From a virus (lineage: Duplodnaviria; Heunggongvirae; Uroviricota; Caudoviricetes), in IMG/VR virus record IMGVR_UViG_2778261301_000013: a stretch of DNA of 10,819 nt. One strand, 5' to 3'. Numbering within the stretch: the first letter of the stretch is position 1; every line of letters starts with the position of its first letter. This document shows positions 873-10,819 of this stretch, in pieces. Made by a program: the position numbers and the translations under genes. Under the pieces are notes generated by a model, which saw only the letters and a program-made list of their open reading frames with translations, was not told where the DNA came from and did not search any database.

Positions 873-1901
873 TTATTTCACCTGTACCACCACAAACTCA
901 TCCGGGTCCGGCAACACCATCAGCGGCGCGGACTGCGTCATGGTAAATTCACGGGCGGGATCCCCTACCGTCAGCCAGTGTTTCGGATAACGGGAAGAGG
1001 CCACCACACCTTCGGACAACGCCTGAGCATCCTGAATGGCACCGTAACAACGGATCCCATCTGCAGCAGTATTCCCCAGAACCAGCATGCCATCTGGAAG
1101 ATAACGTTTTTCGATACCGTCTTCTGCTATATAAGACGTTTTCGCCACCACAATGGCCAGATCGCCGTAATACCCCTTGAAGGACACCACTGCGCCCAGA
1201 TCTTTCACTGCCGTTTCGAGTTGAGAATTTGAACCGCGACGGGTATCCAGTTTTTCGCGGAACAGCTTAAAACCATTCAGAAGACGCCAGACGGTACCGT
1301 CCATAATGGCAATATTCACAAGACCGCTGGCCTGGTCGCAGTAGAGGTCAATATCATGTGTAGGATCGAACGTGTCACGATCCTGTTTTGACCACTCCTT
1401 ACCACCACCCTGAGTGATGTTATTCTTCGTCGACCTGCCAAAATCGACCTCAATTTTCTCGAACTGGTCTCCTTCCATGGTGTATTTGCCATACAACACA
1501 GCATTTACCGCCTGCATTTCTTCCACCTGGACAATCGCGTGCTCTTCCTGTTTGAGGTTATCGGTAATGATACGCAGACGGCGGTAAGCCGGATCATTCA
1601 GTTGAGATGGATCTTCACCAGGAAGGCGCTCAACCGCCTGCTGGTAATTAAATTCGTGTTTCGGCTTGACGTAGCCCGGACGCAACACGCGGGTTTCACC
1701 ACCACGATGACGCAGCACTTTTCCTTCAACAACCGGGGAGACATAGGCCGCCACCGGCGTTTTTCCGGTAATTTTGTCCAGCATCACCTCTTCGGTATGG
1801 AAATTCACCGTACGGCGGAAAAACAGCTCCAGAAACAGCGCACGAAATTTAACTTTTTGTTCGGTATAACCGAGTAACTGGCGGGTCGTAAACAATCCCA
1901 T
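873..1901 (-). CDS. E: Major capsid protein E-like (342 aa)
   Basis: ORF 873..1901 with ATG at 1901 and an AAAGGAA SD-like motif 7 nt upstream. Translation (MGLFTTRQLLGYTEQKVKF...PGYVKPKHE...AIVQVEEMQAV...KLDTRRGSNSQLETAVKDLG...TVGDPAREFTMTQSAPLMVLPDPDEFVVVQ) is collinear with lambda gpE as recalled, with many identical blocks and nearly the same length. Confidence 0.95.
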   Translation of the reverse strand: MGLFTTRQLLGYTEQKVKFRALFLELFFRRTVNFHTEEVMLDKITGKTPVAAYVSPVVEGKVLRHRGGETRVLRPGYVKPKHEFNYQQAVERLPGEDPSQLNDPAYRRLRIITDNLKQEEHAIVQVEEMQAVNAVLYGKYTMEGDQFEKIEVDFGRSTKNNITQGGGKEWSKQDRDTFDPTHDIDLYCDQASGLVNIAIMDGTVWRLLNGFKLFREKLDTRRGSNSQLETAVKDLGAVVSFKGYYGDLAIVVAKTSYIAEDGIEKRYLPDGMLVLGNTAADGIRCYGAIQDAQALSEGVVASSRYPKHWLTVGDPAREFTMTQSAPLMVLPDPDEFVVVQVK

Positions 1902-1930
1902 AAATCAGTTCCTTTCATTCAGAAATCAGT

Positions 1931-1950
1931 CAGGCCACCGCGGTGGCCTG
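1931..1950 (-). other. Perfect 20 bp palindrome (CAGGCCACCG|CGGTGGCCTG) in the D-E intergenic region; potential RNA hairpin
   Basis: Directly visible at 1931..1950 between the D stop (1959) and E start (1901). It would form a 9-10 bp GC-rich stem in the late mRNA. No clean U-tract follows (ACUGAUUUCUG), so it is not a classic intrinsic terminator. Confidence 0.4.
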
Positions 1951-1958
1951 ATAACGTG

Positions 1959-2306
1959 TTACGGCAGCGCCGCGTGACTCAGGGCACTGCCAGCAAAGGC
2001 GTTGGCCTTTTTGTGTTCATCCACACTTTCAGGCCAGTGGATTGCCTCCGTCGCAAAGGTTCCCGACTTGTAATACGTCAGCGCCGTCTCTGTGCCGTCA
2101 AGCGGCAGTACCAGTATGCCAACCGCACTACCGGCTTTCTGTCCGTCCCAGACCACCAGTTTCCCGGTGGCTTCATCCAGCATCAGGGGCGTCAGTGCCG
2201 GTGTTGGCGAGGAAATCCCGCTGCTGCCTGTGGCGGTATGAGCCGGATCATTACCGGCAAAAATACGTACTTCCGCACGCTGTTCAGTGATGGTTTTCGT
2301 CACCAT
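1959..2306 (-). CDS. D: Head decoration protein D-like (115 aa)
   Basis: ORF 1959..2306 with ATG at 2306 and AGGAGGT SD 7 nt upstream. Translation (...NDPAHTATGSSG...TPLMLDEATGKLVVWDGQKAGSAVGILV...YYKSGTF...WPE...FAG) matches lambda gpD blocks (SDPAHTATAPGG, TPLMLDTSSRKLVAWDG, FYKSGTF) as recalled. Confidence 0.92.
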   Translation of the reverse strand: MVTKTITEQRAEVRIFAGNDPAHTATGSSGISSPTPALTPLMLDEATGKLVVWDGQKAGSAVGILVLPLDGTETALTYYKSGTFATEAIHWPESVDEHKKANAFAGSALSHAALP

Positions 2307-2342
2307 ATTGTAAAAACCTCCTATTGATGGTCAGCACTGGCT

Positions 2343-2945
2343 TCATGGCATGGCCATGAGCATTTTCACGTCCGCATCACCATCTGCTGACGTCTGTGGC
2401 ACGCCACCCTGTACCGCTGCCGGTGAATGGTTCGCCATGAAATGTTCAAACATGGCGGTTGTGGATGCAGAGACCGGTTCTGCCTTACCTGATCCCGCAG
2501 CCAGCACAGCCCGGGCGCTCTCCACAGTCATTCCCGGGCAGGCAGCCAGCTGTTCAGCCTGCACCTCAGCCCCTTTTGCCTCATCCAGTGCCATGATCTG
2601 ATCACGGAGTGATGGTCCGGCATCCGCCTGCGGTGAAGCAGCCAGGATCGGGCGGGCTTTTTCCACCGTCATCTCCGGCATCGCCGCCAGTGTTGCCGCC
2701 AGTTGTTCACGACCGTTCGCTTCTTCACACGCCATAATGCGATCGGCTTCACTCTGCGTGGATGCCACCGGCTGCTGCGGTGCCGCCGCGGCCAGAATCG
2801 CCCGGGCCTGTTCAACGCTCATGCCCTGTTGTCCTGCCAGCATCGTGGCAAGCTGTTCACGTCCTTTCGCTTCCTGGCATGTCAGGATCCCCATCACTCG
2901 CTGGTTCTCCTGCGCGGCGGCTTCCGTTGCAGTTAATTGCGGCAT
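2343..2945 (-). CDS. Nu3: Nu3-like scaffolding protein from an in-frame internal start within C (200 aa)
   Basis: In-frame ATG at 2945..2943 (codon 302 of C, MPQLTATEAAAQ...) is preceded by a strong AGGAGG 4 nt upstream (minus-strand GTCAGAGGAGGCACT-ATG). In lambda, Nu3 is made from an internal in-frame start in C at the corresponding place (lambda ...GGRMTKETQ; here ...GGTMPQLTA). Inference from sequence plus lambda precedent. Confidence 0.6.
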   Translation of the reverse strand: MPQLTATEAAAQENQRVMGILTCQEAKGREQLATMLAGQQGMSVEQARAILAAAAPQQPVASTQSEADRIMACEEANGREQLAATLAAMPEMTVEKARPILAASPQADAGPSLRDQIMALDEAKGAEVQAEQLAACPGMTVESARAVLAAGSGKAEPVSASTTAMFEHFMANHSPAAVQGGVPQTSADGDADVKMLMAMP

Positions 2946-3848
2946 AGTGCCTCCTCTGACATTACTGTTCAGCGCCGTGGCCATCACACTGATGGCATCC
3001 GACGCATTGATTAATTCATCCGCCAGCCCGGCCTCAATGCCGGACTGACCTTCAAAAACGGCGGCCTCTGTTCCCGTGACTGCATCAACAGACAGACCGG
3101 TAAACATCGCCACTTTTTCGGCAAACATCCGGCGCGCCGCATCAATCCGCTGCTGCATGTCCTGGCGAACCTCTGCCGGCAACGCTTCAAACTGATTGCC
3201 ATCCACCTTGTGCGCCCCTGAGTAAATCAGCGTGATATCCACACCGGCCTGCGCCAGATGACCGGCATAGCTGACATGGCTCATCATCACGCCAATGGAA
3301 CCGATACGGGATGTCTGGGTAACCAGCCGTCGGGAGCAGGCCGACGCCAGCAGCATGGCTGCAGAACAGGCCGTGTCATTGCACAGTGCCCAGACCGGCT
3401 TCTGCTGACGGAGGCGGTAAATCATGTCAGCGCAGTCAAACGCGCCGGCGGCCTGCCCGCCCGGACTGTCAATGTCCAGCAGTACGCCCCGCACCTGGCT
3501 ATCCGCCATTGCCTGCTGAAGACAGGCGACAATACCGTCATAGCCTGTCATTCCGGAAAATGGCCGCATACCACCCAGCCGGTGCACCAGCGTGCCGGTC
3601 ACCGGCAGTACAGCAATACCGTTCACCACCCTGTAAACACGGGCAGGTCGTTTACCTCCGGCCATGTACTCGTCCGTTTCAGCCAGCATTCCGGGAGCAT
3701 CAAACTGTACCTGCTGTTGTGGTACCGAAAGACTTGCTGCCCCCATCTCGCGCCCGAGCGCGCAAAAGAAAACCCGCGCATAGGCGGGCTCCAGAAGCAG
3801 CGGTTCATTGAATGCTGCGGCAATAATGTGTGAAAGATTACGTCTCAC
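2343..3848 (-). CDS. C: Head maturation protease / minor capsid protein C-like (S49/ClpP-type protease domain with C-terminal scaffold-like region), 501 aa
   Basis: ORF 2343..3848. N-terminal two thirds are collinear with lambda gpC as recalled (AFNEPLLLEPAYARVFFCAL, NGIAVLPVTGTLV, GMTGYDGI, LLDIDSPGG, AGAFDCADMI, KPVWAL, SRRLVTQTSRIGSIGVMM, ITLIYSGAHKVDGN, TEAAVFEGQ...AGLADELIN). The start is GTG at 3848 (no in-frame ATG nearby) and overlaps the end of B by 11 nt. The start codon assignment is less certain than the gene call. Confidence 0.92.
   Translation of the reverse strand: MRRNLSHIIAAAFNEPLLLEPAYARVFFCALGREMGAASLSVPQQQVQFDAPGMLAETDEYMAGGKRPARVYRVVNGIAVLPVTGTLVHRLGGMRPFSGMTGYDGIVACLQQAMADSQVRGVLLDIDSPGGQAAGAFDCADMIYRLRQQKPVWALCNDTACSAAMLLASACSRRLVTQTSRIGSIGVMMSHVSYAGHLAQAGVDITLIYSGAHKVDGNQFEALPAEVRQDMQQRIDAARRMFAEKVAMFTGLSVDAVTGTEAAVFEGQSGIEAGLADELINASDAISVMATALNSNVRGGTMPQLTATEAAAQENQRVMGILTCQEAKGREQLATMLAGQQGMSVEQARAILAAAAPQQPVASTQSEADRIMACEEANGREQLAATLAAMPEMTVEKARPILAASPQADAGPSLRDQIMALDEAKGAEVQAEQLAACPGMTVESARAVLAAGSGKAEPVSASTTAMFEHFMANHSPAAVQGGVPQTSADGDADVKMLMAMP
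2469..2897. repeat. Three tandem in-frame copies of a roughly 47-codon module within the C/Nu3 C-terminal region
   Basis: Protein-level repeats visible in the ORF translation: (1) IL/VMGILTCQEAKGREQLATMLAGQQGMSVEQARAILAAAAPQ, (2) IMACEEANGREQLAATLAAMPEMTVEKARPILAASPQ, (3) IMALDEAKGAEVQAEQLAACPGMTVESARAVLAAGSG. Boundaries approximate. Confidence 0.7.
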
Positions 3849-5430
3849 GTGGTGTTGTCTCCTCTTCCGGCCTGCGACTCTCCGCTATCTGCTGCTGATA
3901 CGCCTGCGCTATCCACACCGGACGTGAGAGTCCGGCTTTTTGCCGCTCAGCAGATTCCCTGACCTGCTGGCGGAAAATGTCCTGATAATCCTCGCCCATC
4001 AGCGCCAGCTCTTTCTCATACGTGCTCAGTCCGGCCTCAATGCGCATCACTGATTCCTGGACTTCCTTGAGCCCGTCAATGGCCATTCTTCCGGCACCAA
4101 TCCACTCTGCCCGTGACCAGGCTGATCGCGCCTGATAAAAATCAAAACGTGCCCGTGGCGGACGAATAATCCCCCGAAGAAGTGCCTCTTCCAGCCAGCA
4201 GGAAAACATCTGCGTGGCCAGCCGGGCCGCAATAAATTTTCGCCGCCCCATAAAATAGCGCCACGACTCATTGGCGGAGGCGCGGGCACTTGAGTAACTG
4301 ACCTTCGAGTAATCACGGGACAACTGTTCGTAGGAAACGCCAAGACCGGCGGCGATATACCGCAGCAGCGCCTGTTCAAGCGCAGAAAATCCATTGTCTG
4401 AATCCTGCGCAGTCTGTAGTTTCAGATCATCACCAGGGAAAAGGTGCGGAATTTTGACACCGCCCAGTGTCACGTTATTCGTGTCATACCAGCTGGAGAA
4501 CTTCTCCAGAATATTAATAAGCGGATTATCCTTCTGCTCCTGTGGCGCGCCGGCGATATATTCAAAGGCCTTTTCGGTATCAAGTTCACTTTCAATCGTC
4601 GCTGCATACATCGCCTTCACTATGGCCGACTGAAGCTGTGTTGCCTGCAGGGAATCGAGCATCTTCAGCCGTTCCATGACGCTGTAAAACTGATTAGCCC
4701 CACGGGTCTGCCCGTCCTCCACCGGCTCGAAAATATGCAGCATGGCCGGACGCCCGGTGGGAAGTTCACGCGGGATCCGTTCCCATCGTCCACTACCAGA
4801 GAACGGAAAATCATCCTCACAGATATGGTACGCGACGGCACGGCCATATCGATCGACCTCCACACCGGCCCGCAGAAAACGGTTCCCCATACCGTGTCCA
4901 GGCGTGTCCACCCGTTTCGGACTCACGGCTTTAAAACGCGTACGGAATAACTGCGTGGTTTCCGTATCCCAGACCGGCTGCACAAAGATTTCGCCGTTAA
5001 ACGCATGAACGCCCACACCTTCACGGATAAATTCCGTGAACGTGCGTTTTCCTTCCACGTCGATCTCGCCAAACATCCCTTCGGCGTATTCCGACCAGGC
5101 CGCCTCCACCTCATCGACAAAGCTTTTTGCTGCGGTCTCCCGCATCCCCAGCCAGCGCCAGTTCGGACGGTAGCTGATCAGAAACATATGCCCGACAATG
5201 TGATCCTTATGCAGAGCCACCGCATTAGCCGCTATTCCGTTATTGCGCACCAGATCATCTGCCCGGGCATTCCCCAGACGCAACGCGGGCAGCAGGGCCG
5301 CATCGGCACTCTGCGCCGGTGGCAACCACTCAGCCATTTGCCCGCCAAATCCTGCACCGCCCCCGTTGTAGCTGAGACTCTCACGAAGCGGAACGCCGTT
5401 CACATCAATCAGGACAGGCGTTCGTTTCAT
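3838..5430 (-). CDS. B: Portal protein B-like (530 aa)
   Basis: ORF 3838..5430 with ATG at 5430, overlapping the W stop as ATGA. Translation is collinear with lambda gpB as recalled (GNARADDLVRNNG, FEPVEDGQTRGAN.FYSVME, LQSAIVKAMYAATIESELDT, LLRYIAAGLGVSYEQLSR, SARASANESW.YFMGRRKF, WIGAGRMAIDGLKEVQE, EAGLSTYEKE) with similar length. Confidence 0.95.
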   Translation of the reverse strand: MKRTPVLIDVNGVPLRESLSYNGGGAGFGGQMAEWLPPAQSADAALLPALRLGNARADDLVRNNGIAANAVALHKDHIVGHMFLISYRPNWRWLGMRETAAKSFVDEVEAAWSEYAEGMFGEIDVEGKRTFTEFIREGVGVHAFNGEIFVQPVWDTETTQLFRTRFKAVSPKRVDTPGHGMGNRFLRAGVEVDRYGRAVAYHICEDDFPFSGSGRWERIPRELPTGRPAMLHIFEPVEDGQTRGANQFYSVMERLKMLDSLQATQLQSAIVKAMYAATIESELDTEKAFEYIAGAPQEQKDNPLINILEKFSSWYDTNNVTLGGVKIPHLFPGDDLKLQTAQDSDNGFSALEQALLRYIAAGLGVSYEQLSRDYSKVSYSSARASANESWRYFMGRRKFIAARLATQMFSCWLEEALLRGIIRPPRARFDFYQARSAWSRAEWIGAGRMAIDGLKEVQESVMRIEAGLSTYEKELALMGEDYQDIFRQQVRESAERQKAGLSRPVWIAQAYQQQIAESRRPEEETTPRET

Positions 5431-8465: not shown

Positions 8466-8870
8466 TTACTCGAGGCCAAATTTCTTCTTTAAATAGGCCT
8501 TCGTTAACTCCAGCCCAACATCTTTGATTGTACTCAAAGGGGCATCGCTCATTGACTTTAATTTCTCAAAAACCGTAGGTTCATTTAATGCCTGGGCGAA
8601 TTCTTGTCCCTGCGCAGATAGTCGCACGTCGGTACCCATATCTAGCATATGGCCACAATGGCGCATGTAGCCCAGTTTAGTTATGTCATCCGTTATTAGA
8701 TCTTTATTACTGATATAACCTTGCTCAATAAGAAGTAGATAATGAAACATCCCTTCATTCGAGCAGATATCGTACCCCGCATTAGCTAAGTCTTTTGTAG
8801 ATATAAAGGGAGTTTTCGCTTTCAAAAATACCTCAAGCATCCCCTTCATGTATTCTAAATTTTTAACCAC
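8466..8870 (-). CDS. Hypothetical protein, 134 aa, in AT-rich accessory block; no family recognised
   Basis: ORF 8466..8870. GTG start at 8870 preceded by a near-perfect SD (minus-strand TAAGGAGGTTTTT-GTG). Translation MVKNLEYMKGMLEVFLKAKTPFISTKDLANAGYDICSNEGMFHYLLLIEQGYISNKDL... The N-terminal half has a helix-turn-helix-like / winged-helix-like pattern, a weak impression only. Own candidate promoter and terminator. Confidence 0.65.
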   Translation of the reverse strand: MVKNLEYMKGMLEVFLKAKTPFISTKDLANAGYDICSNEGMFHYLLLIEQGYISNKDLITDDITKLGYMRHCGHMLDMGTDVRLSAQGQEFAQALNEPTVFEKLKSMSDAPLSTIKDVGLELTKAYLKKKFGLE

Positions 8871-9005: not shown

Positions 9006-9230
9006 TTAGACATTAGATGGCGCTTTGTCAGTATAGACCCGGTACGCCCTGACAAACATCCCGTTACATTCAGAGTCCGCCTTGATATACGCCAATTCGT
9101 AACCCCGATGCTTTAGCTCTTCACGAGCTCTTTTCTCTTCCTTAGCCATGAAGTTAAGATCTTTAATTTCTGAGTAGGTATATGTTCCCACTATAAAATC
9201 TCTGCCTGGCCGTCCATTTATCAGCTCCAT
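9006..9230 (-). CDS. Hypothetical small protein, 74 aa (possible N-terminal extension to 9365 giving 119 aa); no family recognised
   Basis: Six-frame ORF 9006..9365 begins with GTG with no SD. The internal ATG at 9230 is preceded by GGGAGGA (minus-strand TTTTTGGGAGGACAC-ATG), so the 74-aa product MELINGRPGRDFIVGTYTYSEIKDLNFMAKEEKRAREELKHRGYELAYIKADSECNGMFVRAYRVYTDKAPSNV is preferred. The upstream in-frame region resembles sequence found after the stop of the 93-aa gene, so it may be a gene remnant. Confidence 0.5.
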   Translation of the reverse strand: MELINGRPGRDFIVGTYTYSEIKDLNFMAKEEKRAREELKHRGYELAYIKADSECNGMFVRAYRVYTDKAPSNV

Positions 9231-9247
9231 GTGTCCTCCCAAAAAGT

Positions 9248-9323
9248 TGGTAGTCAGAACATACCATGCTAAGCGAGGTGAAAGCACCTTTATCAAGCCC
9301 CCCGCAGATAGACTTTGTAATGG
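9248..9323. repeat. Diverged direct repeat, copy A (partner at 9681..9743)
   Basis: Plus-strand tggtagtcagaacatacc...ttatcaagccccccgcagatagactttgtaatgg aligns with copy B, tggtggcccagaataaattccggtttcattatcaagcccacccgtaaatgggctttgtaatgg. Shared blocks are TGGTNG..CAGAA, TTATCAAGCCC and CTTTGTAATGG; copy A carries an extra roughly 23 bp and one extra C in the C-run (9298..9303). Confidence 0.6.
9258..9266 (-). promoter_or_regulatory. Candidate extended -10 promoter element (minus-strand TGGTATGTT) for the 74-aa ORF
   Basis: TGnTATGTT on the minus strand about 28 nt upstream of the ATG at 9230, leaving room for a short leader containing the GGGAGGA SD. No convincing -35. Pattern-based only. Confidence 0.25.
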
Positions 9324-9680
9324 AGAGTCATTGAGTAGTTCTCGTAATTCTTTGATTTTCCGCACACTCGTGCAGAAGGAGTTCCCCGTCGGGCTACGGT
9401 CATGGTTAATGCGGGAATACAGCGACGATACAGCGCATGATGTGTCAGGCTTGAATACCTTTATCCGTTAAAAGGGATATCAGTTAAGTTACACCGTGTA
9501 GGGTATAAGCCATTGTCGAGACCACTCATTGAATGGCCTCTGCAATAACCGATGTCTTTCCATCAGTCCGCCACCACAAAGAATCTTTTTTGCCTTAAGG
9601 CAGGAGCTTCATCTTTCAGTGGCTGCCAGTGTTATTTCCCCACTTACTGGCTTGGGTTGTTTCGTGGTACTGCCGTTAAC

Positions 9681-9743
9681 TGGTGGCCCAGAATAAATTC
9701 CGGTTTCATTATCAAGCCCACCCGTAAATGGGCTTTGTAATGG
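9681..9743. repeat. Diverged direct repeat, copy B; begins immediately after the stop codon of the 93-aa ORF (minus-strand sense)
   Basis: See copy A. On the minus strand copy B contains a 7 bp inverted repeat AAGCCCA-TTTACGGG-TGGGCTT. Confidence 0.6.
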
Positions 9744-10025
9744 CTACTTCACTTTTGCTTTTGCTTTTGCTTTTGCTTTTGCTTCCGCTCGCTTACGCCG
9801 GCGCTCTTCTTTCCTCTCGGCTTTTGCCATGTCCATGAATGCCTGCATGATCGAGTTCCGCATCATGTAGCTAACAAAGTGATGATTGACACAGCCGTTG
9901 AGGCGCAGCTGCTCGCCAAACTCATCCACCGAGGCCAATGCTTCCATCATGCCCTTCTCGCCTTTCATGAACTCTGAGAAGTCGCGCCCCGCTCTGGAGG
10001 CGCATTCAATGACACGATCACTCAT
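9744..10025 (-). CDS. Hypothetical protein, 93 aa, with a strongly basic C-terminal tail ending in an (Ala-Lys)n repeat
   Basis: ORF 9744..10025. Its ATG at 10025 overlaps the stop of the upstream KilA-N-like ORF as ATGA (10022..10025), suggesting translational coupling. Translation MSDRVIECASRAGRDFSEFMKGEKGMMEALASVDEFGEQLRLNGCVNHHFVSYMMRNSIMQAFMDMAKAERKEERRRKRAEAKAKAKAKAKVK. No family recognised with confidence. Confidence 0.65.
   Translation of the reverse strand: MSDRVIECASRAGRDFSEFMKGEKGMMEALASVDEFGEQLRLNGCVNHHFVSYMMRNSIMQAFMDMAKAERKEERRRKRAEAKAKAKAKAKVK
9753..9782. repeat. Hexanucleotide simple sequence repeat (TTTTGC)5 on the plus strand = (GCAAAA)5 on the coding strand, encoding AKAKAKAKAK
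   Basis: Five perfect tandem hexamers visible at 9753..9782, followed by a degenerate sixth (ttccgc). Lies within the 3' end of the 93-aa ORF, in frame. Confidence 0.9.
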
Positions 10026-10519
10026 CCCGGAAGCCCGGGGATCGTAATCTGCAGCTGGTTAGCCAGGGAGTTAATCTCAGCGACCAACACTGGCTTCGTA
10101 TAGCGCCATGCTGCCAGCCCTTGTCCGCAGAAGCTCGCCATGTCTTTCTTCTGGTCAAACTCATGACATTTCATGTTGAGCTGCGCACTTAAGCTGTTGC
10201 GATGCTGAAGTTCTCCGGTGAAGTAGTCATCGAGGACTTTATAGGCCGCGTACTTGAACCCGGGGTTTAACCAAGCCGCATAATCGTAAGCAACAAACTT
10301 CCCGCCATATGTTCCACCGTGTACACCGCGCTCAGTAAAAACCACAGATTCGTGGTTTTTCTCCAGCTCGGCTAAGAACTCTTTGGTCTGCTTGTTTCGC
10401 AGGTAGTGGTAAGGCGATTCAGATTCACTTTTACCACTGGCTTTCCACATATCAGTGAGGCAGATCATGCCATCTTCACCGATACGAATTGGTTGATTGA
10501 AGAGGGTTAATGATTTCAT
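10022..10519 (-). CDS. KilA-N domain-containing protein (165 aa), putative DNA-binding
   Basis: ORF 10022..10519 with ATG at 10519. Translation MKSLTLFNQPIRIGEDGMICLTDMWKASGKSESESPYHYLRNKQTKEFLAELEKN...GVHGGTYGGKFVAYDYAAWLNPGFKYAAY shows the characteristic KilA-N/APSES-type pattern (hydrophobic run + TD..KA.GK, then TKEFL, then GT....VA.DYA.WL.P.F). Assigned from recalled family features, not a search. Confidence 0.7.
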   Translation of the reverse strand: MKSLTLFNQPIRIGEDGMICLTDMWKASGKSESESPYHYLRNKQTKEFLAELEKNHESVVFTERGVHGGTYGGKFVAYDYAAWLNPGFKYAAYKVLDDYFTGELQHRNSLSAQLNMKCHEFDQKKDMASFCGQGLAAWRYTKPVLVAEINSLANQLQITIPGLPG

Positions 10520-10634
10520 AGCGTGTACCTACTCTTTGAAATGAACCTTTGCCGCACAGGAAACCAGCCCACCGAGGCTCGCCAGCACTAACTGGTATCC
10601 TCAAAGGCCCATTCCAAAGGGGCAGGTTCGGTGT

Positions 10635-10688
10635 AAAAAACATGCGTTGCGGTACGCATTTATTGCAAAAAGCCCCGCATCGCGAGGC
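10635..10688 (-). terminator. Two tandem intrinsic terminator candidates between the Rz stop and the KilA-N-like ORF
   Basis: Distal: minus-strand RNA GCCUCGC-GAU-GCGGGGC (7 bp stem; plus-strand 10672..10688) followed by UUUUU (plus-strand 10667..10671). Proximal: AUGCGU-ACCGCA-ACGCAU (perfect 6 bp stem; plus-strand 10642..10659) followed by G then UUUUUU (plus-strand 10635..10640). Confidence 0.5.
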
Positions 10689-10720
10689 TCATTAAATGGA
10701 CTTTGTGATTTGCAAAAAAA

Positions 10721-10819
10721 TTATTTCAGGCATTGCGTCCTGATGTATTCCTGCAGGTAGTTAACCTGCGCGGTTATCTTGTCGATTCCACTTCGGAGAC
10801 GGTAATAATTGAGTTCAGC
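10721..10819 (-). CDS. Rz: Rz-like i-spanin, C-terminal 32 codons only (gene runs off the window end)
   Basis: Minus-strand frame ending at TAA (10723..10721) translates ...AELNYYRLRSGIDKITAQVNYLQEYIRTQCLK*, resembling the lambda Rz C-terminus as recalled (...RDYFTLRERLITMQKQLEGTQKYINEQCR*). Position upstream of cos on the late strand fits. Short partial sequence, so moderate confidence. Confidence 0.55.
   Translation of the reverse strand, partial: AELNYYRLRSGIDKITAQVNYLQEYIRTQCLK
10774..10818 (-). CDS. Rz1: Possible Rz1-like o-spanin C-terminus embedded in the +1 frame of Rz (last 14 codons)
   Basis: Alternate minus-strand frame reads ...LNSIITVSEVESTR* with its stop inside Rz, reminiscent of the lambda Rz1 C-terminus (...PLNGIISPSERG*) and of the embedded Rz1 arrangement. 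Very short; weak evidence. Confidence 0.3.
   Translation of the reverse strand: MNSIITVSEVESTR

What the first reader, a model, noticed from the sequence alone, without database searches (positions are those of the whole stretch)
9744..10519. KilA-N domain protein translationally coupled (ATGA overlap) to the basic-tailed 93-aa protein
The stop of the KilA-N-like ORF and the start of the 93-aa ORF overlap as ATGA at 10022..10025, which implies a co-expressed two-protein unit. KilA-N domains are DNA-binding modules usually fused to other domains; here the domain appears stand-alone and paired with a small, highly charged partner. The pair sits directly downstream of tandem terminators with no obvious sigma-70 promoter, so it may be expressed only by antiterminated late transcription.
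Basis: partly seen in the sequence, partly recalled or inferred. Interest (0 to 1): 0.45.

Follow-up and report, generated by a model that had tools for sequence, protein, structure and literature searches.

The report
Phage KilA-N gene pair, RNA-gated
The two overlapping genes are a real, common prophage accessory pair of unknown role, and the noteworthy part is an apparently undescribed folded RNA leader just upstream that hides the first gene's ribosome-binding site and recurs in front of many related phage genes.

Summary
A 165-aa ORF (10519→10022) and a 93-aa ORF (10025→9744) overlap as ATGA. They lie between the Rz lysis gene and terminase Nu1 of a lambdoid E. coli prophage.

The first protein is not a stand-alone KilA-N. 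It is KilA-N plus ORF11CD3, the same domain pair as phage D3 Orf11, which Pfam's ORF11CD3 is evidently named after.

The 93-aa protein is a three-helix protein with a basic tail of variable (KA)n length. All 134 copies examined follow a KilA-N gene directly. Its N-terminal domain also occurs fused to T5orf172/MUG113 domains.

The pair is ordinary. It is annotated in HK620 (hkbK/hkbL), Stx phages and HK97, and part of it is present in 988 of 5,426 complete E. coli genomes.

What is new lies upstream (10690→10520):
- Two terminator-like hairpins, then a ~110-nt structured leader.
- The leader's base pairs the Shine-Dalgarno sequence with an anti-SD.
- Covariation is strong (96–99% paired, 13–15 compensatory pairs, 0/500 shuffles).
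- A second covarying helix (A–A′) crosses the main stem.
- No Rfam family matches.

The same leader precedes Rha (including P22 rha), KilA-N, ANT, P22_AR_N, T5orf172 and HNH genes, mostly just after lysis genes. Late-only, translation-gated expression is likely. Protein function remains inferred.

The parts
10721..10819 (-). 3' end of the Rz-like spanin gene (stop TAA at 10721-10723). The late lysis cassette lies upstream.
   Evidence: Sequence. Alignment to the HK97, mEp234 and PhiR49_1 Rz ends. Annotations.
10665..10690 (-). Hairpin H1, GAGCCUCGC-GAU-GCGGGGCUU followed by U5 (terminator-like). It forms the conserved 5' edge of the mobile cassette.
   Evidence: Fold. Eight pairs conserved in 12 diverse leaders. 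The same hairpin sequence is upstream in 99 of 120 loci. The listed exceptions mostly show a different hairpin + T-run in its place.
10635..10659 (-). Hairpin H2, AUGCGU-ACCGCA-ACGCAU followed by U6. This is the second terminator-like element. In other leader types it is a GCGCA..UGCGC hairpin without a U-run.
   Evidence: Terminator scan. Fold. Alignments A1 and A3.
10525..10634 (-). Structured leader RNA: a long imperfect hairpin (helices H3-H5) whose base pairs the anti-SD with the SD of the KilA-N gene.
   Evidence: Covariance-model hit, 54.5 bits, E=2e-12. RNAalifold and pair counts: 96% paired, 15 of 32 pairs compensatory, 0/500 shuffles. 99% paired and 13 of 20 compensatory on 48 distinct sequences. 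Window MFE -69.3 kcal/mol, z=-3.5. No Rfam match.
10628..10633 (-). Segment A (CACCGA), the 5' arm of the extra helix A-A'.
   Evidence: Complementary A/A' arms sit at the same relative positions in 60 distinct leaders with 17 distinct A/A' sequence pairs. 53 of the 60 are individually P<=0.05.
10570..10575 (-). Segment A' (UCGGUG), inside the apical part of the long hairpin. A-A' crosses H3-H5, so it is either a pseudoknot or an alternative fold.
   Evidence: The nascent RNA up to A' folds with A-A' formed.
10619..10627 (-). Anti-Shine-Dalgarno strand (ACCUGCC..C).
   Evidence: Pairs with 10527-10534 (10533 is a bulge) in the MFE structure and in the ensemble. It corresponds to CCUUU pairing with AAAGG in other leader types, with compensatory changes (helix 3).
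10527..10534 (-). Shine-Dalgarno region (GAGUAGGU) of the KilA-N gene, 8 nt before the ATG.
   Evidence: P(unpaired) <= 0.05 at every SD base except the bulged A at 10533.
10022..10519 (-). Gene for the 165-aa KilA-N-ORF11CD3 protein. KilA-N domain is nt 10217-10495. ORF11CD3 domain is nt 10037-10195.
10026..10040 (-). GC hairpin CCCGG-GCUU-CCGGG ending directly at the small gene's ATG. No well-spaced SD is present.
   Evidence: Read from the sequence. The role in translational coupling is inferred.
10022..10025 (-). ATGA stop/start overlap.
   Evidence: Conserved in 122 of 134 loci.
9744..10025 (-). Gene for the 93-aa partner. Helical domain is residues 1-66 (nt 9828-10025). Basic tail is residues 67-93 (nt 9747-9827).
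   Evidence: phrog_875. AlphaFold model pLDDT 91.6, three helices. The family is narrow: 19 representative clusters among 1.84 billion proteins. The domain is homologous to the N-terminus of T5orf172/MUG113 proteins (hhalign 94%, E=1.2e-7; Pfam).
9752..9784 (-). CTTTTG hexanucleotide repeat encoding (KA)n. Its length is polymorphic and stays in frame.
   Evidence: Tandem Repeats Finder. Protein lengths of 85, 87, 89, 91, 93, 95 and 101 aa among relatives.

Best explanation
This is a mobile accessory cassette of the Bro/KilA-N/Rha domain-shuffling network. It sits in the late operon of a lambdoid prophage, between the lysis genes and the terminase genes.

SHOWN BY SEQUENCE AND COMPARISON
- The cassette consists of, in order: a terminator-like hairpin (two in this variant), a ~110-nt structured leader, the KilA-N-ORF11CD3 gene, and a 93-aa gene overlapping it by ATGA.

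INFERRED
1. Transcripts reach the genes only when Q-modified RNA polymerase reads through the terminators, so the cassette is silent in the lysogen.
2. The finished leader folds into a long hairpin that pairs the Shine-Dalgarno sequence, which keeps translation low.
3. An earlier-forming helix (A-A') ties up the anti-SD region in the nascent RNA. It may give a short translation window, or it may be the handle for a trans-acting factor.
4. Ribosomes finishing the KilA-N gene restart at the overlapping ATG, which has no usable SD of its own. The two proteins would then be made together.
5. The KilA-N (APSES-like) domain binds DNA and the ORF11CD3 helical hairpin mediates self- or partner-association.
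6. The small protein works with the KilA-N domain as a nucleic-acid-binding accessory subunit through its long basic helix.

The biological target of the proteins is not known. Candidates are a repressor, host DNA, or competing elements.
For: CONTEXT
- The cassette lies between Rz and Nu1, on the same strand as the head genes.

DOMAINS
-.

PAIRING OF THE TWO GENES
- 134 of 134 small genes follow a KilA-N gene. The upstream partners are 129 KilA-N-ORF11CD3 and 5 KilA-N-P63C proteins of two kinds.
- 34 of 35 window-type loci with this KilA-N type carry the small gene with the 4-nt overlap.
- The same pair, with a related leader (the HK97 type), occurs between tail genes in Klebsiella and Raoultella phages. 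The unit therefore moves as a whole.

LEADER RNA
- Covariation statistics.
- The A-A' helix.
- SD pairing probability above 0.95.
- The sense strand scores 54-97 bits against at most 27 bits for the antisense strand.
- G-U pairs occur on the sense strand.
- The nascent-RNA fold contains A-A'. The final fold is 10-18 kcal/mol more stable than the fold with A-A' enforced.

TERMINATOR AND PROMOTER
- The upstream terminator is conserved or replaced by another one.
- No promoter-like site is found.
- 170 of 201 leader copies with enough upstream sequence lie within 1.6 kb downstream of a spanin/lysis gene on the same strand.

ESTABLISHED KNOWLEDGE
- Lambdoid late operons are transcribed from pR' by Q-modified, terminator-resistant polymerase through the lysis genes into the head genes.
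Against: - There is no expression data of any kind. A weak or activator-dependent promoter between the hairpins and the leader cannot be excluded.
- Terminator activity and SD occlusion are predictions only.
- A physical interaction between the two proteins was not tested.
- Nearly identical small proteins follow KilA-N proteins that share only about 23% identity. This argues against a tightly co-evolved interface.
- Most leader-driven Bro-network genes have no small partner.
- More distant KilA-N-ORF11CD3 orthologues carry unrelated small ORFs, or none that was called.
- The fold search for the small protein returned only generic helical bundles.
- The loci analysed are phylogenetically close (Enterobacterales), and many are near-identical.
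Confidence: 0.5

Rival explanations
1. The two genes are merely adjacent, co-transcribed modules with separate functions. The ATGA overlap reflects genome compaction and co-expression, not a two-subunit complex. On this reading the small protein is a free-standing copy of an N-terminal targeting module that elsewhere works fused to a T5orf172 nuclease-like domain.
For: - The homologous domain is fused to T5orf172/MUG113 and is driven directly by its own leader, with no KilA-N present.
- Nearly identical small proteins sit behind very different KilA-N proteins.
- 4-nt overlaps are common, including gpW/portal in this same window.
Against: - All 134 small genes sit immediately after a KilA-N gene, with three different KilA-N protein types and two different C-terminal domains.
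- The small gene is never seen alone, and never behind Rha, ANT or P22_AR_N genes that carry the same leader.
Confidence: 0.27
2. A kil-type toxic protein plus a neutralising or modulating partner, resembling a toxin-antitoxin pair. The tight transcriptional and translational gating would exist because KilA-N-ORF11CD3 is harmful to the cell, and the coupled small protein would temper it.
For: - Double gating by terminators plus SD sequestration is typical of toxic genes.
- From my own knowledge: P1 KilA is lethal when expressed, and Rha proteins inhibit phage growth in IHF-deficient hosts.
- The Gifsy-1 anrP locus shows a comparable silent-mRNA design linked to growth arrest (PMC4825925).
Against: - No toxin or antitoxin family hit appears in Pfam, NCBIfam or PADLOC.
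- Most leader-driven Bro-network genes lack any partner.
- Frameshifted KilA-N genes with an intact small gene exist (7 of 134). The reverse would be expected if the small gene were an indispensable antidote.
Confidence: 0.1
3. A lysogen-expressed moron with its own promoter that protects the host against other phages, in the manner of the KilA-N-containing BstA abortive-infection protein.
For: - There is a weak PADLOC match to the defence candidate PDC-S22 (E=1.2e-8 over a ~30-residue stretch).
- From my own knowledge: BstA carries an N-terminal KilA-N domain.
- The slot between the lysis and terminase genes often holds morons.
Against: - No promoter-like site is found.
- Terminators lie directly upstream.
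- The SD is sequestered.
- No BstA or other defence-system model hit was obtained.
- The protein is about half the size I recall for BstA.
Confidence: 0.08
4. The conserved upstream region acts at the DNA level, as a recombination joint between shuffled cassettes or as a protein operator. On this reading the apparent RNA structure is incidental.
For: - The leader marks mosaic boundaries. A truncated small gene is fused to the next leader in Salmonella locus L092.
- The same leader type is joined to many different genes.
Against: - Compensatory changes keep pairing in 13-15 pairs while the sequence varies.
- G-U pairs occur only on the sense strand, and the covariance model scores far higher on the sense strand.
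- The structure involves the SD in every leader type.
Confidence: 0.05

Closest known systems
Pseudomonas phage D3 Orf11 and the Bro/KilA-N domain-shuffling network (Iyer, Koonin & Aravind 2002, from my own knowledge; 'Bro network' in PMC10111431)
   Same: Same two-domain architecture, KilA-N + ORF11CD3. tblastn matches D3 orf11 at 27% identity over 92% of the query. Both domains score above Pfam's cut-offs.
   Different: This protein is a distant relative of D3 Orf11. Here it is coupled to a small partner gene and preceded by a structured leader.
HK620 hkbK/hkbL, HK97 p60/p61, and the Stx-phage 'KilA-N domain-containing protein + hypothetical protein' pairs
   Same: The same gene pair in the same slot after Rz, with 95-100% protein identity (HK620, Stx phages, PhiR49_1, ECP1). 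In HK97 and mEp234 the small gene follows a KilA-N-P63C protein instead.
   Different: These are annotated only as hypothetical or KilA-N proteins. No function, leader or coupling is noted in the records seen here.
P22 rha (ORF201)
   Same: It carries the window-type leader with both upstream hairpins, in the same slot after gene 15/Rz (54.6 bits; sequence). Its C-terminal domain is ORF11CD3.
   Different: Its N-terminal domain is Phage_pRha, not KilA-N, and no small partner was seen after the Rha-ORF11CD3 genes of this group in related loci. The annotated rha start (39575) lies inside the leader. The likely start is the ATG at 39645.
Gifsy-1 isrK-orf45-anrP locus (PMC4825925)
   Same: The design is similar. 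A terminator is followed by a readthrough mRNA that is translationally inactive through alternative RNA structures. That mRNA encodes an antirepressor-like protein by AUGA-coupled translation.
   Different: It is not homologous at detectable level. The covariance model finds nothing in Gifsy-1, and no Rfam family (which I recall includes isrK) matches the window region. The Gifsy-1 locus sits just after Q rather than after the lysis genes. Activation there is by the short sRNA acting in trans, for which there is no evidence here.
Kinetically controlled leaders such as hok mRNA and the MS2 maturation-gene leader (from my own knowledge)
   Same: The stable fold sequesters the SD, and an earlier-forming alternative pairing exists in the nascent chain.
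   Different: No sequence relation. The kinetic behaviour here is a prediction only.
BstA (KilA-N-containing prophage abortive-infection protein, from my own knowledge)
   Same: An N-terminal KilA-N domain in a protein encoded by an enterobacterial prophage.
   Different: No PADLOC BstA hit was obtained. By my recollection of BstA, its size, C-terminal part and genome position also differ.

Membership tests
KilA-N domain (PF04383) | Profile match above Pfam's gathering score | tested here: met
   57.6 bits against 23.8, residues 9-101.
KilA-N domain (PF04383) | APSES-like alpha/beta DNA-binding fold | tested here: met
KilA-N domain (PF04383) | DNA binding | not testable with these tools
   Needs EMSA or ChIP.
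   ORF11CD3 at residues 109-161, 50.5 bits against a cut-off of 25.
ORF11CD3 (PF10549) | Profile match above Pfam's gathering score | tested here: met
   A helical hairpin at residues 86-156 in the model.
Translationally coupled gene pair | Stop/start overlap conserved among relatives | tested here: met
   ATGA at 10022-10025. 122 of 134 loci have the 4-nt overlap and 5 have a 2-nt gap.
Translationally coupled gene pair | Downstream gene lacks an independent, accessible SD | tested here: inconclusive
   Only GGG lies directly next to the ATG, inside a CCCGG/CCGGG hairpin. No functional test was possible.
Translationally coupled gene pair | Downstream translation depends on upstream translation | not testable with these tools
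   Needs a premature-stop reporter experiment.
Moron (autonomous promoter-gene-terminator unit expressed from the prophage) | Own promoter directly upstream | tested here: not met
   No sigma-70-like site on the minus strand in 10520-10819. The scan is a consensus scan only.
Intrinsic terminators upstream of the pair | GC-rich hairpin followed by a U-run | tested here: met
   10642-10659 was flagged by the scan. Both hairpins appear in the fold. The feature is conserved or replaced across loci. Termination activity was not tested.
Cis-regulatory structured RNA leader | Base pairs maintained by compensatory changes beyond controls | tested here: met
   96% paired, 15 of 32 pairs compensatory, 0/500 shuffles, slid controls 34-52% paired. 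99% paired and 13 of 20 compensatory on 48 distinct sequences.
Cis-regulatory structured RNA leader | Structure involves the ribosome-binding site | tested here: met
   Helix 3 pairs CCUUU with AAAGG. In the window, SD bases have P(unpaired) <= 0.05.
Cis-regulatory structured RNA leader | Measurable effect on expression | not testable with these tools
   Needs reporter fusions and structure probing.
Any Rfam 15 family (which I recall includes isrK and isrJ) | Covariance-model match | tested here: not met
   No match in the leader at E<=1 in the window, nor at E<=10 in six other loci.
IsrK-orf45-anrP type locus | Sequence or structure homology of the leader | tested here: not met
   Model R1 finds nothing in Gifsy-1. 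The resemblance is in design only.
Known anti-phage defence or toxin-antitoxin systems | Match to PADLOC, Pfam or NCBIfam models of such systems | tested here: not met
   Only a weak local match to the candidate PDC-S22 (E=1.2e-8) and to QatB (E=0.014). Nothing in NCBIfam.

The most novel reading that the evidence does not exclude
The ~110-nt leader, together with its obligatory upstream terminator hairpin, may be an undescribed class of riboregulator. It could act as a kinetic translational timer, or as a switch set by a protein, a small RNA or a ligand. It would govern expression of the whole Bro-network gene set (Rha, KilA-N, ANT, P22_AR_N, T5orf172, HNH) in temperate phages of Enterobacterales, including Stx2a phages and P22. 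The 93-aa basic protein could be one of its trans-acting partners.
Probability: 0.3. Interest if true: 0.72.

Novelty: new variant of a known kind. Interest (0 to 1): 0.5.

Why it matters
The protein pair by itself is routine annotation.

The leader matters because Bro-network genes (Rha, KilA-N, antirepressor-like proteins) are among the most widespread and least understood accessory genes of temperate phages. A shared, covariation-supported RNA gate would do three things:
- It would explain how potentially harmful regulators are kept silent in lysogens.
- It would give a concrete handle (compensatory mutants) for testing when and why they are made.
- It would correct gene starts. P22 rha is annotated as starting inside the leader.

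The element is present in clinically relevant Stx2a phages and may bear on the old observation that Rha blocks phage growth in IHF-deficient hosts.

The analysis also defines the 93-aa protein's domain as a new module of this network, one that is sometimes fused to T5orf172 nuclease-like domains.

Tried and rejected
- **Solved structures.** No PDB sequence relatives exist for either protein.
- **Zinc-site idea.** C8, C45, H48 and H49 looked like a possible metal site. I dropped this because C8 is not conserved in the distant homologues P0122 and P0133.
- **LexA box or promoter upstream.** None was seen by eye, and none was found by the scan.
- **Homology of the leader to Gifsy-1 isrK/orf45.** Rejected.
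- **GEBRO motif.** I recalled that Weinberg's GEBRO motif was Bro-associated. This was wrong: the name stands for "GC-Enriched, Between Replication Origins".
- **Henthorn & Friedman 1995 (rha and IHF).** The paper could not be retrieved, and the papers that cite it add nothing.
- **One-genome-per-species scan.** It gave only 7 loci, which confirms a narrow host range rather than adding diversity.
- **Third protein search.** A profile of the helical domain returned essentially the same family.
- **A-A' helix in a fixed-column alignment.** The MAFFT and covariance-model alignments are out of register by 1 nt between leader types. The helix was therefore tested per sequence against shuffles instead.
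- **Degenerate metagenome pattern scan.** Not run, because by my estimate chance matches would swamp it.
Full report
**1. Observation**

The two ORFs are on the minus strand. One is a 165-aa ORF at 10022..10519 and the other a 93-aa ORF at 9744..10025. The + strand reads tcat at 10022-10025, which is ATGA on the coding strand, so the stop of the first ORF overlaps the start of the second.

A 4-nt overlap is common. By the ORF coordinates, the gpW-like and portal ORFs of this same window overlap by 4 nt at 5427-5430.

The window is the late region of a lambdoid E. coli prophage. On the minus strand the gene order is:
- the Rz end,
- the pair,
- two unknown ORFs (9365-9006 and 8870-8466),
- Nu1 (8065-7517; Phage_Nu1, E=2e-81),
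- terminase A, gpW, portal, protease and capsid genes.

**2. The first protein**

Pfam gives KilA-N at residues 9-101 (E=1.3e-15) and ORF11CD3 at residues 109-161 (E=2.4e-13). Both are above their curated cut-offs. The "stand-alone KilA-N" reading is therefore wrong.

The same two-domain architecture is found in Pseudomonas phage D3 orf11, which Pfam's ORF11CD3 is evidently named after.

**3. The second protein**

It belongs to phrog_875, of unknown function. The AlphaFold model (pLDDT 91.6) shows three helices. The third runs from residue 48 to 92 and carries the basic tail.

The tail is partly encoded by a perfect CTTTTG x5.5 repeat at 9752-9784. The repeat number varies in frame among relatives, giving proteins of 85 to 101 aa.

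The family is very narrow. It has 138 clusters in the 5.8-billion-protein search and only 19 representative clusters among 1.84 billion proteins. All named sources are Enterobacterales.

Fold search and PDB sequence searches are uninformative.

The N-terminal ~56 residues carry the motifs ECASRAGRDFSEF and GCVNHHF. They are homologous to the N-terminus of ~160-aa proteins whose C-terminus is a T5orf172/MUG113 domain (hhalign probability 94%, E=1.2e-7; Pfam; also P0133). The small protein is thus a free-standing copy of an unnamed module of the same shuffling network.

**4. Is the pair conserved?**

  - 129 follow KilA-N-ORF11CD3. Of these, 122 have the 4-nt overlap and 7 follow a frameshifted upstream gene.
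  - 5 follow one of two kinds of KilA-N-P63C protein, with a 2-nt gap (Pfam).
- The KilA-N types share only about 23% identity, confined to the KilA-N domain. The association is therefore with that domain.
- From the KilA-N side: 34 of 35 window-type loci with this KilA-N type carry the small gene.
- Orthologues at 51-64% identity carry other small ORFs (some also overlapping by 4 nt) or none that was called. The Salmonella Kottbus locus carries a truncated remnant of the small gene. The other loci are from Cronobacter, Erwinia and Yersinia.
- The pair is usually found after Rz. In Klebsiella phage RAH1 and a Raoultella contig it lies between tail genes, together with its upstream region. It therefore moves as a unit.
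- It is common. There are 57 phage records with the small gene. Of 5,426 complete E. coli genomes, 988 hold part of the cassette and 352 hold at least 80% of it.
- The loci are mostly close relatives, so these counts overstate independence.

**5. The upstream region**

Aligning the upstream region of diverse loci showed that conservation starts at a hairpin, not at the Rz gene.

The full architecture, on the window's minus strand, is:
- H1: GAGCCUCGC-loop-GCGGGGCUU + U-run (10690-10665).
- H2: 10659-10635. In this variant it also carries a U6 run, which gives the "tandem terminators".
- A ~110-nt region, 10634-10525.

RNAalifold on 12 diverse leaders predicts a long imperfect hairpin. Pair counting supports it:

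| Alignment | Cells paired | Compensatory pairs | Shuffles reaching the observed value | Slid controls |
|---|---|---|---|---|
| 12 diverse leaders | 96% | 15 of 32 | 0 of 500 | 34-52% paired |
| 48 distinct sequences, model-based alignment | 99% | 13 of 20 | 0 of 500 | 39-67% paired |

The basal helix pairs CCUUU with the AAAGG Shine-Dalgarno sequence. In the window it pairs ACCUGCC..C (10627-10619) with GAGUAGGU (10534-10527), and the SD bases have P(unpaired) <= 0.05.

The window leader folds to -69.3 kcal/mol, z=-3.5.

Sense-strand hits to the covariance model score 54-97 bits against at most 27 bits for the antisense strand. G-U pairs occur on the sense strand. The structure is therefore RNA on the coding strand.

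No Rfam 15 family matches the leader. The text searches I ran found no description of it. Much of the literature is not searchable here.

**6. A second helix**

A 6-8-nt segment just 5' of the anti-SD (A) is complementary to a segment inside the apical part (A').

| Locus | A | A' |
|---|---|---|
| window | CACCGA | UCGGUG |
| HK97 | CCAAGAGC | GCUCUUGG |
| L089 | CACAGAA | UUCUGUG |
| L090 | UCCCAGAG | CUCUGGGA |

Among 60 distinct leaders there are 17 distinct A/A' sequence pairs, and 53 leaders are individually significant against shuffles.

A-A' crosses helices H3-H5, so it is either a pseudoknot or an alternative fold. ViennaRNA predicts that the nascent RNA up to A' folds with A-A' formed. 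The completed leader prefers the SD-pairing hairpin by 10-18 kcal/mol over the fold with A-A' enforced.

I infer a metastable early fold that relaxes into a stable "off" fold. This is a prediction only. A compact pseudoknot, made possible by a kink at the conserved 3'-side bulge GYGMGA, is not excluded.

**7. The leader is not specific to this pair**

They found the leader in front of genes for:
- Rha-ORF11CD3 and Rha,
- several KilA-N types,
- P22_AR_N-ORF11CD3,
- ANT,
- T5orf172/MUG113,
- HNH_3(-AP2) proteins

.

P22 carries the window-type leader directly before rha (54.6 bits). The annotated rha start at 39575 lies inside the leader, and the likely start is the ATG at 39645.

A terminator-like hairpin precedes the leader in 99 of 120 loci with the same sequence. 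The listed exceptions mostly show a different hairpin + T-run in its place.

Of 201 leader copies with enough upstream sequence, 170 lie within 1.6 kb downstream of a spanin/lysis gene on the same strand.

A blastn search finds the HK620-type leader in 154 phage records. These include 73 Stx2a-converting phages, and phages of Salmonella, Klebsiella, Enterobacter, Hafnia, Citrobacter and Edwardsiella. In the rows shown the region is mostly unannotated.

**8. How it most likely works**

Shown:
- the anatomy of the cassette,
- its conservation and mobility,
- the RNA covariation,
- the predicted SD pairing.

Established knowledge: lambdoid late operons are read from pR' by Q-modified, terminator-resistant polymerase through the lysis genes into the head genes.

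Inferred:
- The cassette is silent in lysogens, because of the terminators and the absence of a promoter-like site.
- It is transcribed only late.
- Its first gene is translated at a limited rate set by the leader.
- The 93-aa gene is translated by termination-reinitiation. Its ATG abuts a CCCGG/CCGGG hairpin and has no well-spaced SD.

The protein function is the weakest part. I commit to a KilA-N DNA-binding regulator of the antirepressor-like Bro network, with the small basic-helix protein as an accessory subunit associated with the KilA-N domain. My confidence in that step is about 0.35.

The closest functional precedent in design is Gifsy-1 isrK-orf45-anrP. There, terminator readthrough yields a translationally silent mRNA with alternative structures and AUGA coupling (PMC4825925). 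It is not homologous to this leader.

**9. Rivals**

- The two genes are adjacent but functionally independent modules.
- A kil-type toxic protein with a moderating partner.
- A lysogen-expressed defence moron.
- A DNA-level role for the conserved upstream region.

The evidence for and against each is given in the rival section. None is excluded by experiment.

**10. Novelty and verdict**

One of its claims, the stand-alone KilA-N, is wrong.

The part worth attention is the terminator-plus-leader element. It is a well-supported, apparently uncatalogued structured RNA shared by the Bro-network genes of enterobacterial temperate phages.

Interest 0.5. Novelty: new variant of a known kind (a translational-control leader), with a 0.3 chance that it is a genuinely new riboregulator class.

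Noticed in passing
window 10525-10690 (minus strand): A conserved terminator hairpin plus a ~110-nt structured leader that pairs the SD, with an extra covarying helix A-A'. It is shared by many Bro-network genes and is not in Rfam.
   Followed up: yes
window 9752-9784: A perfect CTTTTG x5.5 repeat encodes the (KA)n tail. The copy number varies in frame among relatives (proteins of 85-101 aa), as expected from replication slippage.
   Followed up: partly
L220 (phage P22, NC_002371) 39535-39645: The annotated start of rha (39575, ORF201) lies inside the structured leader. The SD and an ATG at 39645 (MNELIANHDF...) fit the leader and match the Rha-ORF11CD3 proteins of other phages. The start is probably misannotated.
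   Followed up: partly
L092/L093 (Salmonella Kottbus contigs) 1636-3534: A tandem array of three leader-Bro cassettes: P22_AR_N-ORF11CD3, KilA-N-ORF11CD3 and KilA-N. A small gene truncated after 14 codons runs straight into the next leader, which suggests recombination at the leaders.
   Followed up: partly
L088 1573-2229; several IMG/VR loci: HNH_3(-AP2) homing-endonuclease-like genes sit directly behind a leader. In L088 the gene is inserted between Rz and the KilA-N-P63C gene.
   Followed up: partly
window 9006-9365 and 8466-8870 (minus strand): Two further ORFs of unknown function (phrog_6100 and phrog_585) lie between the pair and Nu1. The first is not called in the RefSeq annotation of a 99% identical E. 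coli genome.
   Followed up: no
window 9714-9735: Hairpin AAGCCCA-N8-UGGGCUU 9 nt after the small gene's stop codon, without a clear U-run. It may be a weak or bidirectional terminator.
   Followed up: no
L085 (MAG 'Candidatus Nanosynbacter' contig) and Actinobacillus phage vB_Apl-pPE4 (PP818812): Both records carry this E. coli-type cassette at 96-98% protein identity. Contamination, misbinning or a mislabelled host is likely.
   Followed up: no
window 10022-10519 protein, residues 60-90: A weak PADLOC match to the defence candidate PDC-S22 (E=1.2e-8). It probably reflects a shared KilA-N-like stretch.
   Followed up: no
L004 (Klebsiella phage RAH1) 1392-2255; L089 (Raoultella) 2162-3258: The whole unit (terminator, leader, KilA-N gene, small gene) is inserted between tail genes rather than after the lysis genes. 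The small proteins are nearly identical even though the KilA-N partners have different C-terminal domains.
   Followed up: partly
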